Below, one piece after another: positions 51,137-54,100 of a stretch of DNA of 64,000 nucleotides; position 1 is the stretch's first letter; every line of letters starts with the position of its first letter. The position numbers are program-made. This DNA is from Microcaecilia unicolor. Its lineage: Eukaryota. The stretch covers positions 62,370,339-62,434,338 of the forward strand of contig NC_044034.1 in the NCBI RefSeq assembly GCF_901765095.1. Direction: 5' to 3'.

Positions 51137-54100
51137 GTGAGTCTGGGTGCGAGTGTGTCTTTGAGAGAGAGAGTGTGTGTGTGTGTGTTAGAATGAGAGT
51201 GTGTGCAAGTGCGTATGTGATACACAGTGTGAGAGAGAGAGAGTGTGTTTCACACAGATACAGTGTGTGCGAGAGAGATACAGTGTGTGCGAGAGAGAGT
51301 GTGTGTGAGTCACAGTCTCTCTGTGAGACTGAGTGTATGAGACCAAGAGAGTGTGTGACTGTGTGACACATAGTGAATGCCTCAGCACACAGAGTGTGTG
51401 AGAGCGAGAGAGAAAGACATTGACTGTGTGAGAAAAAGAGTGTGTGTGTGTGTGACAGAGATACCCCTCCCTCCCTCCCTCCCTCTCTCTCTCTCTCTCT
51501 CTCTGGTGTCTGAGCGTTACTGTGCAGGACACTGAGCTCTGGCTATGCTTCAAGGAACTGACCAATCCTATTTAATAGAATGCACCTCCAACATTCTGAA
51601 GCCGAGAAATCTCATGTGGTTGGTCACTTCTGCTTGTGACGAACCCGGAAGTACGTGATGTCAATTCAGGAGATGGATACAGAGAGCAGGAATGCCTCAG
51701 CCATGCAGTCAGCTTCAGAATCATAGATGCCAGGGTTGCGGTAATCCCGCCCAATTGGGCGGGTTTTTGGGCGCGGCTGCGGGAGATTTCTCGTCGCTGC
51801 GTGTTGCGTGATTGGGCGGTTTTGCGGCGTGTAATTGGGCGTTTTTCGCCGCGTTGCTGCGGCAACCGCCAATCAGCTGCCAAACCTGCCCCTTCTTATG
51901 TCTGTGCAGTGCGGCGAAATTTTCCACTTTCGTTCGGCAATTGAATTGGCTCGTCGTCGCCTGACTGACTCGCCTCGGCTTCTTCTTCGCTTCGCTCAGC
52001 TGAGCTGCAGTGCCGCCGATCCCGGAAGAGCAGAAGAAAAGAGAAGGAGAGAGCAGCCCAGCCAGCTCATATCCAGCCAGCTTAGTATGTAAGTAGTATA
52101 AAATTGCACTTCTGAGATAGGCTGGTTTAATGGGGGGGGGGGGGGGGGGCACCTAGGTACCATGTGGATTTGTTTTAAATCCACATGGTACCTAGGTGCC
52201 CCTGTGCCAATCTATGTGCGTCCGTCCATTGATGATTTGGCTGGTTTAATAGGGTGGGGGGCACCTAGGTACCATGTGGATTTGTTTTAAATCCACATGG
52301 TACCTAGGTGCCCCTGTGCTAATCTATGTGCGTCCGTCCATGATGATTTGGCTGGTTTAATAGGGTGGGGGGCACCTAGGTACCATGTGGATTTGTTTTA
52401 AATCCACATGGTACCTAGGTGCCCCCCACCCTATCAAACCAGCCAAATCATCAATGGATGGATGCATATAGATTGGCACAGGGGCACCTAGGTACCATGT
52501 GGATTTGTTTTAAATCCACATGGTACCTAGGTGCCCCCCCCCCCACCCTATTAAACCAGCCAAATCATCATGGACGGCCATACATGGATTGTGGATTGCT
52601 ACTTGCAGTGCTGTTGCTATATTGTAATCGCACTTCCCTTTTTTAATTTTTATAGCGCTACAAGGCATACGCAGCGCTGTGGACCATAGACAAAAAGACA
52701 GTCCCTGCTGATAGTTTTCTACTTCCCGACCGTTCATATTCATATTATAATGGGAAAGTGGGCATCTTATACCAAGAAATACTGCAAGAGCTGGGAGAAA
52801 GAGGCACTCTTAAAAGACTGGGTAAGGAGTGTGCCAGGAGACGACAACAAACCATATTGTCGTTTTTGCAAAGCTGAGATACGTGCACATCATCATGATT
52901 TAGTGAACCATGCCTATACAGCCAAACATAAGAAGAATGCAGCGCCATTTTCAAGTGCTAGGTCATTATTTGATATGGGCTGCCAGTCTATCACTATCGA
53001 TAAATCGACCAAGACAGCGGAGCTGACGTTGGCGGCACACGTTGCGTGCCATTCCAGTATCGCAATGATCGATCACCTAGGCGAGGTTATGAAGAAGTTT
53101 TCGGGCAAAGACATAGCTATACACCACACGAAATGTTCTGCACTCATCAAGAATGTCCTTGGGCCTGCAGTCCACCAAGAATTGATTTCGGACCTGTGCA
53201 CAAATGACACGTCTTATTCCTTGATCATCGATGAAAGCACCAATATCGGCCTGGAGAAGCAGCTGTGTGTGATGGTGCGCTACTACAGCAGTTCCTTGAA
53301 GTGTATTACCACTGCATTTCTAGGAATATTAGCCCTTGAGACTGGTACTGCAGAAGGAATATTCAATGCCATAACCAATTTTCTTCAATCAAATAATCTT
53401 CAAATAGGCAAATGCATAGGCTTAGCAACTGATGGCTGTAGCACCATGTGTGGAAGAAATAATTCAGTAATAACACGGTTCCGTTAATTGTCCCCCAACA
53501 TTGTACACATAAAGTGTATTTGCCATTCAATTCAGCTGAGTTCTTCGCATGCGCTGAAGGTGCTGCCAAGGAACATTGAATTCATGGTTGCTGAGACCTA
53601 TAACTGGTTCTGCCATAGTACTGTTCGCCAGCAGAAATACAAACAGATATATCAGTGCATTAATGTTGGTCAAGAACCACTAAAGATCCTGAAGTTGTCA
53701 GACACTCGCTGGCTGTCCATAGCTGCTTGTGTTCAGCGTGTGCTTGATCAATATGATGAACTGAAGCTTCACTTCCAGATAGCGAAGGATGAGACACGCT
53801 GCTACACCGCTGACCACCTCTACCAGATGTACAACACACCACAAAACAAGCTGTACTTTACATTTTTGAGGCCCATACTGCAGGAAGTCAACCGAGTGAA
53901 CAAGCTGTTTCAGTCTGATAAAGCGAGCCCTGTCCGTTTGCTCGATGAGTTGATGACATTGTATCGCACCATGCTGCTGCGGCTTGTGAGACCGACCACA
54001 TTCACATCGTGGGGCGCAACTCTCATGTATGATTTGGAAGACAGGTCTAAGCATCTACCGCTGGCAGCGATGAACTTTGGTATCGAATTCCAGTTGTCGC

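What the first reader, a model, noticed from the sequence alone, without database searches (positions are those of the whole stretch)
51600..52090. CpG-island promoter-like block (3-5 CCAAT boxes, GC boxes, two CCGGAAG ETS sites) ending in a GTAAGT donor, directly upstream of the hAT transposase
CpG density is far above the window background. The motif combination is that of a housekeeping-type promoter driven by NF-Y, Sp1 and GABP. The TAT|GTAAGT site at ~52088 suggests a short non-coding first exon. It could be the promoter of a host gene whose first intron captured the hAT element, or the hAT family's own promoter. The transposase has only ~3 disruptions, so it may be recently active or partly domesticated.
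Basis: inference. Interest (0 to 1): 0.55.

Follow-up and report, generated by a model that had tools for sequence, protein, structure and literature searches.

The report
Left end of a hAT transposon
The CpG-rich, "promoter-like" block is the left tip of a dead hAT transposon, and most of its CCAAT and GC boxes are the family's conserved end repeats, so it is an ordinary transposon feature rather than a host gene promoter.

Summary
Positions 51730-52030 have 33 CpGs, observed/expected (o/e) 1.24, against 0.49 for the window. All the named motifs are present and exceed dinucleotide shuffles.

CpG enrichment starts at 51722. A profile built from the 5' ends of related hAT elements, without the window, hits the window once, at 51726-51811 (E 5.7e-11). 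Three of those relatives have perfect 8-bp target-site duplications. In ungapped register the element tip is 51722 (CATAGATGCCAG, family CAGTGTTGCCAG).

Four of six CCAAT/ATTGG and all three GC boxes lie inside one repeated unit, (A/G)ATTGGGCG(G)TTTT, and a family-conserved palindrome, CCCGCCCAATTGGGCGGG. By analogy with Ac and Tgf2 these are subterminal transposase-binding repeats. Fifty-seven further metagenome loci carry the core of this 5'-end signature, and 32 of them begin with the canonical tip.

The first CCGGAAG (51645) lies in the flank. The host-promoter reading is refuted. An element-own promoter is plausible but not shown. One forward CCAAT (51869) is positionally conserved.

The GTAAGT intron is unsupported. 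The hexamer occurs at chance frequency, a TATAAAA follows it, relatives lack a donor, and the acceptor sits in an unrelated repeat fragment.

The transposase gene has five lesions and no 3' end was found in the window. Interest is low.

The parts
51600..51721 (.). Flanking DNA outside the element. It holds the first CCGGAAG (51645). The last 8 nt, TTCAGAAT (51714-51721), are the presumed target site.
   Evidence: CpG o/e is 0.55, the same as the background. Homology to family 5' ends starts only at 51722-51726. TTCAGAAT occurs only once between 51000 and 64000, so no second target-site copy exists there.
51722..51733 (+). 5' terminal inverted repeat, degenerate: CATAGATGCCAG against the family CAGTGTTGCCAG (9 of 12).
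   Evidence: The register is ungapped with L006, L003, L009 and L043, matching 30 of 39 positions up to AATTGGGC. Relatives with this tip have perfect 8-bp target-site duplications.
51734..51870 (+). Subterminal repeat region. It holds the 18-bp perfect palindrome CCCGCCCAATTGGGCGGG (51746-51763) and the repeated unit (A/G)ATTGGGCG(G)TTTT at 51754, 51811 and 51834, with a further TTGGGCG at 51767. An ~80-nt unit is duplicated internally (51753-51782 and 51833-51862). This region supplies 4 of the 6 CCAAT/ATTGG and all 3 GC boxes.
   Evidence: The family 5'-end profile, built without the window, gives its only significant hit here (E 5.7e-11), plus a weak second hit at 51813-51866. blastn to L043 gives 77% identity over 99 nt (E 5e-14). 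TTGGGCG is clustered here, 4 of 5 in the window. Repeat families D2 and D4. CpG o/e is 1.40.
51869..51873 (+). Forward CCAAT box (ccgCCAATcag), 148 nt from the element tip. It is the candidate core of the element's own promoter.
   Evidence: A forward CCAAT lies 140-156 nt from the tip in 5 of 28 sequence clusters of family 5' ends. These include the fish element L009 (position 147) and the L070 group (143-153). About 0.02 is expected per cluster.
51871..52119 (+). Unique leader, the putative promoter and 5' UTR of the element. It holds the second CCGGAAG (52022), GTAAGT (52089) and TATAAAA (52097).
   Evidence: It lies between the hAT tip and the conserved start codon. CpG o/e is 0.85. No other copy exists in the window and it has no DNA similarity to the leaders of relatives. 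Relatives have leaders of 126-666 nt.
52120..52590 (.). Palindromic array that interrupts the leader. It has four copies of a perfect 57-nt hairpin spaced 111-112 nt apart, and the whole array is itself an inverted repeat.
   Evidence: Families D1 and I1-I12 in the repeat finder. The DNA fold is -238.7 kcal/mol with z -30. CpG o/e is 0.17. Rfam gives only generic hairpin hits below the gathering scores. No other copy exists in the window.
52638..52716 (+). Fragment of a dispersed repeat inside the leader. It carries the only strong splice-acceptor-like site (ttttttaatttttatAG, AG at 52654-52655).
   Evidence: nhmmer matches 27626-27705 (-) at E 5e-7 and 45777-45853 (+) at E 5e-6. Those two copies are parts of a repeat about 200 nt long.
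52750..54771 (+). hAT transposase pseudogene of the DUF4371 / FAM200-ZBED5 RNase-H-like / hAT dimerisation type. It has 5 lesions: TAA at 53485, a frameshift near 54155, TAA at 54288, a 2-nt deletion at 54415/6, and TGA at 54556.
   Evidence: It is collinear with the 657-aa Microcaecilia unicolor protein P0001, at 64-71% identity over the three aligned frame segments. Pfam hits are weak. Homologs carry PF14291, PF27073 and PF05699. Lesions were located. The conserved start is MGKWA.

Best explanation
Positions 51722 to about 52119 are the left (5') end of a non-functional hAT DNA transposon whose transposase gene follows at 52750.

The end has three parts:
- a degenerate 12-nt terminal inverted repeat (51722-51733);
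- about 140 nt of subterminal repeats built on AATTGGGCG(G)TTTT, plus a conserved palindrome, CCCGCCCAATTGGGCGGG;
- the element's own leader, which in the active ancestor must have contained the transposase promoter.

By analogy with Ac, Hermes, Tol2 and Tgf2, the subterminal repeats are the sites where the transposase's N-terminal zinc-finger region binds to mark the element's ends. In this protein that region reads C37-x2-C40...H54-x5-H60. The repeats happen to spell CCAAT and GGGCGG and are full of CpG. This is why the block looks like an NF-Y/Sp1 CpG-island promoter in a CpG-poor genome.

The real promoter probably overlaps or directly follows the repeats, as it does in Ac. The forward CCAAT at 51869 is its best candidate element.

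The leader was later expanded by a palindromic array and a fragment of another repeat. The copy then decayed and has no recognisable 3' end.

What is shown: homology and register of the tip, the repeat structure, family-wide conservation, the decay of the reading frame, and the absence of a 3' end in the window.

What is inferred: transposase binding to the repeats, promoter location, and the order of events.
For: (1) Homology of the tip. Elements found through their transposase proteins end in CA[AG]TGTTGCCA and ...TGGCAAC[ACT]CT[AG]. These are L001, L003, L005 (whose contig starts inside the element, so only its 3' tip is seen), L006, L009 and L010/11. L001, L009 and L010/11 have perfect 8-bp target-site duplications. 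A profile of their 5' ends, built without the window, hits the 64-kb window once at a significant level, at 51726-51811 on the + strand (E 5.7e-11).

(2) Conserved blocks. GCCAG....GCGGT..TCCCGCCCAATTGGGC, GCTGCGGGA.ATTT and TGCG[GT]GTTGCG are shared at the same spacing.

(3) More relatives. A scan for the first of those blocks found 57 metagenome loci. Of these, 32 have a canonical tip, with 31 different flanks. The closest, L043, is 77% identical over 51728-51823 and has an MGKW start 666 nt from its tip.

(4) Same box content in relatives. Their first 150 nt hold on average 3.2 CCAAT/ATTGG, 2.9 GC boxes and 12.8 CpG. The window holds 4, 3 and 19.

(5) CpG step. CpG o/e rises from 0.55 to 1.40 exactly at 51722.

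(6) Orientation. The TTGGGC repeats point the same way at both ends of complete relatives. The literature calls subterminal repeats a defining hAT feature that the N-terminal zinc finger binds (PMC4890040). In Ac the 5' subterminal region partly overlaps the promoter (PMC13635294).

(7) Promoter hint. A forward CCAAT lies about 150 nt from the tip in 5 of 28 subfamilies.
Against: - No second copy of this exact subfamily could be obtained. Whether 51871-52119, the array and the repeat fragment belong to the family consensus is therefore unknown.
- The first 7 nt of the tip differ from the family consensus at 3 positions.
- No 3' inverted repeat, 3' subterminal repeats or second target-site copy exist in the window. 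The defining target-site duplication cannot be shown for this copy.
- Transposase binding to AATTGGGC is by analogy only.
- No transcription or methylation data exist.
- The counts in point (4) are partly forced. The retrieval pattern itself contains two CCAAT/ATTGG and one CCGCCC.
Confidence: 0.87

Rival explanations
1. The block is the CpG-island promoter and non-coding first exon of a host gene, and the hAT element landed in that gene's first intron.
For: The block meets CpG-island criteria. A GTAAGT lies at 52089. An ETS-like CCGGAAGT lies at 51645 in the flank.
Against: The CpG-rich part starts at the hAT tip and is homologous to hAT 5' ends from other animals. The flank has background CpG. 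The sequence between the block and the transposase start is the element's leader. No host exon was seen. GTAAGT occurs at chance frequency.
Confidence: 0.02
2. The locus is a domesticated hAT-derived gene of the FAM200/ZBED5 kind. It would have a CpG-island promoter, a non-coding exon 1, a 5' UTR intron (52089-52655) and a single coding exon. It is either recently pseudogenised or carries assembly errors.
For: The architecture resembles many domesticated transposase genes. The reading frame is full length and collinear with the annotated Microcaecilia protein, at 64-71% identity across its segments. The 3' transposon end is missing. Relatives appear to be fixed next to SF3B1 in reptiles.
Against: Three of the five lesions are substitutions to stop codons, which are unlikely to be assembly errors. 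The terminal and subterminal repeats are retained in exact family register. The candidate acceptor lies in an unrelated repeat fragment, and the 'intron' is mostly a private palindromic array. Relatives have no donor in their leaders.
Confidence: 0.06
3. The dead copy's 5' end has been co-opted as an orphan CpG island, acting as a promoter or enhancer for host NF-Y/Sp1/ETS factors and kept unmethylated.
For: All five family-conserved CpGs in the first 90 nt are retained. TpG+CpA o/e is 0.98 in the block, while the reading frame has CpG o/e 0.61, TpG+CpA o/e 1.41 and a CGA-to-TGA stop.
Against: Retaining 5 of 5 CpGs is not significant at the estimated age; my rough estimate gives a probability of about 0.2. 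The composition difference may be original. No expression or methylation data exist.
Confidence: 0.05

Closest known systems
Maize Activator (Ac) 5' end: 11-bp terminal inverted repeat, subterminal AAACGG repeats, overlapping promoter
   Same: Both have a short terminal inverted repeat followed by about 150-250 nt of CpG-containing short repeats. In Ac these repeats are transposase-binding sites. The 5' subterminal region partly overlaps the element's promoter, and its methylation goes with inactivity (PMC13635294). Both have a long leader before the transposase start.
   Different: The repeat unit here is AATTGGGCG/T rather than AAACGG. This is an animal element of the DUF4371/FAM200-ZBED5-like clade. 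Binding, promoter and methylation effects are untested here.
Tol2 / goldfish Tgf2 and Hermes: animal hAT elements whose N-terminal zinc finger binds subterminal repeats
   Same: All share terminal inverted repeats, multiple subterminal repeats at both ends, 8-bp target-site duplications and an N-terminal CxxC...H...H finger (PMC4890040). Complete relatives of the window copy show all of these.
   Different: The transposase clade and the repeat sequence differ. Tgf2 has 17-18 repeat copies per end, against about 4-5 here. The window copy lacks its right end.
Vertebrate CpG-island promoters driven by NF-Y, Sp1 and GABP
   Same: The block meets the composition criteria, has CCAAT and GC boxes, and has one CCGGAAG inside the element.
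   Different: The boxes are parts of a transposon repeat conserved in invertebrate hosts. No host gene, no evidence of a transcription start and no methylation data exist.

Membership tests
hAT DNA transposon (this copy) | Transposase with an RNase-H-like catalytic core and the hAT C-terminal dimerisation domain | tested here: met
   The frame is collinear with P0001, at 64-71% identity across its segments. Homologs carry PF14291, PF27073 and PF05699. The window's own Pfam hits fall just below the curated cut-offs (Dimer_Tnp_hAT 20.4 bits against 21.4) because the frame is damaged.
hAT DNA transposon (this copy) | Short terminal inverted repeats at both ends | tested here: inconclusive
   The 5' tip is present in family register but degenerate (9 of 12). 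The 3' repeat is absent from the window. GCAACCCT does not occur, the 3'-end profile's best hit has E 0.46 and lies elsewhere, and an inverted 14-mer search was negative.
hAT DNA transposon (this copy) | 8-bp target-site duplication | tested here: inconclusive
   Relatives L001, L009 and L010/11 have perfect 8-bp duplications. For the window copy only the left half (TTCAGAAT) can be read, and it has no second copy between 51000 and 64000.
hAT DNA transposon (this copy) | Subterminal short repeats next to the terminal inverted repeat | tested here: met
   TTGGGCG occurs 4 times within 51755-51835 out of 5 in 64 kb. Repeat families D2 and D4. The same TTGGGC unit occurs at both ends of complete relatives.
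hAT DNA transposon (this copy) | Transposase binds the subterminal repeats | not testable with these tools
   By analogy with Ac and Tgf2 only (PMC13635294, PMC4890040).
CpG-island housekeeping promoter of a host gene | Composition: at least 200 bp, GC at least 50%, CpG o/e at least 0.6 | tested here: met
   51730-52030 has GC 0.595 and o/e 1.24.
CpG-island housekeeping promoter of a host gene | Belongs to host DNA and leads into host exons | tested here: not met
   The sequence is homologous to hAT 5' termini. The next reading frame is the transposase.
CpG-island housekeeping promoter of a host gene | Transcription start and unmethylated state | not testable with these tools
   No expression or methylation data are available.
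5' UTR intron (52089-52655) | Donor and acceptor used in transcripts and conserved in relatives | tested here: not met
   The leaders of L043 (666 nt) and L070 (430 nt) contain no GT[AG]AGT. The acceptor lies in an unrelated repeat fragment. GTAAGT occurs at chance frequency. Transcripts could not be tested.

The most novel reading that the evidence does not exclude
The family's end-recognition repeats are built as a CCAAT/GC-box palindrome (CCCGCCCAATTGGGCGG) about 25-40 nt from the tip, with a positionally conserved forward CCAAT about 150 nt from the tip. These could be dual-use sites where host NF-Y/Sp1 and the transposase compete. That would give the element a CpG-island-like, methylation-resistant and self-limiting promoter, conserved from invertebrate to vertebrate hosts. 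This dead copy might then persist as an orphan CpG island.
Probability: 0.1. Interest if true: 0.45.

Novelty: new member of a known kind. Interest (0 to 1): 0.15.

Why it matters
The main value is in annotation. A block that passes CpG-island and motif tests in a CpG-poor vertebrate genome turns out to be a transposon terminus. Scans that look for promoters by motif should therefore mask transposon ends first.

There is a minor biological point. This widely spread hAT family is seen here in a caecilian-like vertebrate window, a cyprinid fish, and many invertebrate-derived contigs. It keeps a CCAAT/GC-box palindrome at its tip. In some subfamilies it also keeps a CCAAT about 150 nt from the tip. 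This would make a tractable case for asking whether transposase-binding sites and host promoter elements overlap in animal hATs, as they do in maize Ac.

Tried and rejected
- First tip assignment. I first placed the element start at 51731 (CAGGGTTGC, 8 of 9 to the family tip). That needs a 9-nt gap. The ungapped register found by the profile puts the tip at 51722 and keeps all spacing. The first assignment was rejected.
- Search for the 3' end. An inverted 14-mer search with a target-site check, exact motif searches, a 3'-end profile and a search for a second TTCAGAAT all found nothing.
- Other copies in the window. blastn and nhmmer self-searches found none for the block, the leader, the array or the reading frame.
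- Other copies elsewhere. Exact look-up of the 245-aa ORF returned nothing. A look-up of P0001's contig was not on record. A protein search with the spurious 143-aa ORF across the block gave no hits. An exact 25-mer scan of metagenome contigs gave 0 hits.
- Leader similarity. DNA similarity between the window leader (51871-52749) and the leaders of relatives stops at 51823.
- Rfam on 51000-56500 gave only sub-threshold generic miRNA-hairpin hits on the palindromic array.
- Literature searches for the tip sequence and the palindrome found nothing relevant.
- The 12-nt repeat AATCATAGATGC. I considered it as a sign of nested self-insertion. This was rejected because the sequences upstream of the two copies are unrelated, and the frameshift in the reading frame is a simple 2-nt deletion. 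The repeat remains unexplained.
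Full report
OBSERVATION

The block is real. Positions 51730-52030 have GC 0.595, 33 CpGs and CpG observed/expected (o/e) 1.24, against 0.49 for the whole window. The 300-nt windows starting at 51701 and 51751 hold the highest CpG counts in the window, 30 and 31. All named motifs are present:
- CCAAT at 51751 and 51869;
- ATTGG at 51754, 51811, 51834 and 51945;
- GGGCGG at 51757 and 51814, and CCGCCC at 51747;
- CCGGAAG at 51645 and 52022;
- GTAAGT at 52089.

Against 2000 dinucleotide-preserving shuffles of the block, the box counts are well above expectation (P 0.0015-0.0025). 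GTAAGT is not unusual. It occurs 13 times on the + strand of the window, so one occurrence in about 1 kb has roughly a 19% chance.

Two details change the picture. First, the boxes are not independent. Four of six CCAAT/ATTGG and all three GC boxes are pieces of one repeated unit, (A/G)ATTGGGCG(G)TTTT, and of an 18-bp perfect palindrome, CCCGCCCAATTGGGCGGG, at 51746-51763. TTGGGCG occurs five times in 64 kb, four of them within 51755-51835. Second, CpG enrichment begins abruptly. O/e is 0.55 at 51600-51721, 1.40 at 51722-51870 and 0.85 at 51871-52119.

THE GENE DOWNSTREAM

Positions 52750-54771 encode a hAT transposase. It is collinear over its full length with a 657-aa protein of the caecilian Microcaecilia unicolor, at 64-71% identity across the three aligned frame segments. 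Homologs carry DUF4371, the FAM200-ZBED5 RNase-H-like domain and the hAT dimerisation domain.

The copy is dead. It has five lesions:
- TAA at 53485;
- a frameshift near 54155;
- TAA at 54288;
- a 2-nt deletion at 54415/6;
- TGA at 54556, aligned to an arginine in P0001 and therefore probably CGA to TGA.

The start MGKWA is conserved in relatives. The interval from the block to 52749 is therefore the 5' leader.

RELATED ELEMENTS

I fetched DNA around homologous proteins. Several carry complete, compact elements:
- L001: 2262 bp, target-site duplication GTGATGTG.
- L009: Pseudorasbora parva, 2904 bp, duplication CTGACAAT.
- L010/L011: 2617 bp, duplication ACCTTGTG.

All three duplications are perfect 8-bp repeats. 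The ends read CAGTGTTGCCA... and ...TGGCAAC[AC]CT[GA].

Their 5' ends share, at fixed spacing, GCCAG....GCGGT..TCCCGCCCAATTGGGC, then GCTGCGGGA.ATTT, then TGCG[GT]GTTGCG, then TTGGGC repeats. The TTGGGC unit recurs three to five times in the same orientation at the 3' end.

I built a profile from the 5' ends of L001, L003, L005, L006 and L009, leaving the window out. It hits the 64-kb window once at a significant level, at 51726-51811 on the + strand (E 5.7e-11). A weak second hit at 51813-51866 reflects an internal duplication of the unit.

The ungapped register puts the element tip at 51722 (CATAGATGCCAG against CAGTGTTGCCAG). I first read the tip as the CAGGGTTGC at 51731. That reading needs a 9-nt gap and I rejected it.

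A scan of metagenome contigs for the conserved signature returned 57 loci. Thirty-two begin with the canonical tip, behind 31 different flanks, as expected for a mobile family. The closest locus, L043, is 77% identical to 51728-51823 (E 5e-14). Its MGKW start lies 666 nt from the tip. L070 has a 430-nt leader.

In 28 of these copies the first 150 nt hold on average 3.2 CCAAT/ATTGG, 2.9 GC boxes and 12.8 CpGs. The window holds 4, 3 and 19. The retrieval pattern itself contributes two CCAAT/ATTGG and one GC box to those averages.

WHAT THE BLOCK IS

The block from 51722 is therefore the left terminus of the hAT element. It consists of a terminal inverted repeat, subterminal repeats and the start of the leader. 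The 'NF-Y/Sp1' motif composition is a family trait carried in hosts as different as fish and invertebrates. The first 122 nt of the finding, including the CCGGAAGT at 51645, are flanking DNA.

MECHANISM (INFERRED)

Subterminal repeats are a defining feature of hAT elements. They are bound by the N-terminal zinc-finger region of the transposase, and that binding is needed for cleavage and strand transfer (PMC4890040, on Tgf2, Ac and Tol2). In maize Ac the CpG-containing AAACGG repeats are transposase-binding sites. The 5' subterminal region partly overlaps the Ac promoter, and its methylation accompanies silencing (PMC13635294).

The window protein has a conserved C37-x2-C40...H54-x5-H60 motif. 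I infer that AATTGGGC(G/T) is this family's transposase-binding unit.

An autonomous ancestor must also have carried its promoter between the tip and the start codon. One element has independent support, the forward CCAAT at 51869 (ccgCCAATcag), 148 nt from the tip. A forward CCAAT lies 140-156 nt from the tip in 5 of 28 sequence clusters, including the fish element (position 147) and the L070 group (143-153). About 0.02 is expected per cluster. With the window excluded, this gives P of roughly 0.003 by my binomial estimate. That is suggestive rather than decisive, and the position was chosen after seeing the data.

THE PROPOSED INTRON

The proposed intron is not supported, for four reasons.
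- The donor hexamer is within chance expectation.
- A canonical TATAAAA sits at 52097, directly after it.
- The leaders of L043 and L070 contain no GT[AG]AGT.
- The only strong acceptor (AG at 52654-5) lies inside a 79-nt fragment of a dispersed repeat, which has copies at 27626-27705 (-) and 45777-45853 (+).

Most of the 'intron' is a private palindromic array at 52120-52590. It has four perfect 57-nt hairpins and folds at -238.7 kcal/mol, z -30.

Without the array and the repeat fragment the leader would be about 480 nt. That falls within the upper part of the family range of 126-666 nt.

STATE OF THIS COPY

No 3' inverted repeat, 3' subterminal repeats or second target-site copy exist anywhere downstream in the window. 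The copy is either 3'-truncated or its end lies beyond the window.

All five family-conserved CpGs in the first 90 nt are retained. The reading frame has CpG o/e 0.61 and a TpG/CpA excess. I do not regard this as significant evidence that the block is protected from methylation.

RIVAL READINGS

- Host CpG-island promoter: contradicted by the homology.
- Domesticated hAT gene with a CpG-island promoter: unlikely. Three lesions are substitution stops and the transposon end is retained in register.
- Co-option as an orphan CpG island: cannot be excluded without methylation or expression data.

NOVELTY

This is a new member of a known kind. The architecture is textbook hAT. The specific tip and palindrome were not found in the searchable literature. 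That shows only that those exact strings do not appear in that library.

Interest is low. The value of the result is that it explains the promoter-like signal.

Noticed in passing
window 52120-52590: A palindromic array inside the hAT leader. It has four copies of a perfect 57-nt hairpin (GGGGCACCTAGGTACCATGTGGATTT GTTTT AAATCCACATGGTACCTAGGTGCCCC) spaced 111-112 nt apart. The flanking segments are arranged so that the whole 470 nt is itself an inverted repeat. The DNA fold is -238.7 kcal/mol (z -30) and CpG o/e is 0.17. No other copy exists in the window, and Rfam gives only generic hairpin hits below threshold. Its origin is unknown; it could be a foldback or MITE-like insertion, or a local amplification.
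   Followed up: partly
window 51719-51730 and 54411-54422: An exact 12-nt repeat, AATCATAGATGC. One copy straddles the junction between the flank and the hAT tip, where the first 7 nt of the tip depart from the family consensus. The other lies in the transposase frame, over the 2-nt deletion frameshift. A 12-mer at a given position recurring within 6 kb has a chance of about 4e-4 per strand. It could be templated filler at a transposase-made break, gene conversion, or coincidence.
   Followed up: partly
window 52638-52716, 27539-27735 (-), 45739-45958: A dispersed, SINE-like repeat (core ...AGCGCT..ACG.AGCGCTGT...GACAGTCCCTGCT...). It is present as a 79-nt fragment just upstream of the transposase start and as copies about 200 nt long at two other places in the window.
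   Followed up: partly
window 28669-34612 (-): A gammaretrovirus-like endogenous retrovirus. One ORF has Gag_MA and Gag_p30 (33056-34612). Another has protease, reverse transcriptase and RNase H (30728-32446). This region accounts for several of the other CpG-rich stretches in the window.
   Followed up: no
window 36267-36995 (-); 3641-4570 (-); 11955-12557 (+); 44990-45631 (-); 49653-50345 (-): Other transposable-element remnants. There is a DDE_1 (pogo/Tigger-type) transposase ORF and three reverse-transcriptase fragments. A 230-aa ORF at 49653-50345 looks to me like a DIRS-type tyrosine-recombinase element but has no Pfam hit. The window is largely made of repeats.
   Followed up: no
window 51040-51510: A long compound (GT)n/(GA)n/(CCCT)n microsatellite tract lies directly upstream of the flank of the hAT insertion.
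   Followed up: no
L007 and L008 (Natator depressus OZ223949/OZ223864); proteins P0013, P0014, P0016: Reptile homologs of this transposase are 45-47% identical and full length. In the flatback turtle the gene sits next to SF3B1. The Rhineura protein is annotated as a COQ10B isoform, and COQ10B is the neighbour of SF3B1 in the human genome (from memory). This suggests a fixed, possibly domesticated, hAT-derived gene at the SF3B1-COQ10B locus in reptiles.
   Followed up: no
L001 (ENA ERZ21830300 ctg693721c): The 2262-bp hAT element is embedded in a 5.2-kb unit that is tandemly repeated at least four times. Element tips recur at the same spacing through the array. One 5' flank and the preceding 3' flank, one repeat unit apart, were read and both are GTGATGTG. 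This points to segmental tandem amplification after insertion, or an assembly artefact.
   Followed up: no
window 42950-43370: AGGGTTGC recurs six times within about 420 nt, in a stretch of 63% GC (43001-44000). This looks like a GC-rich tandem repeat. It is unrelated to the hAT tip despite the shared octamer.
   Followed up: no
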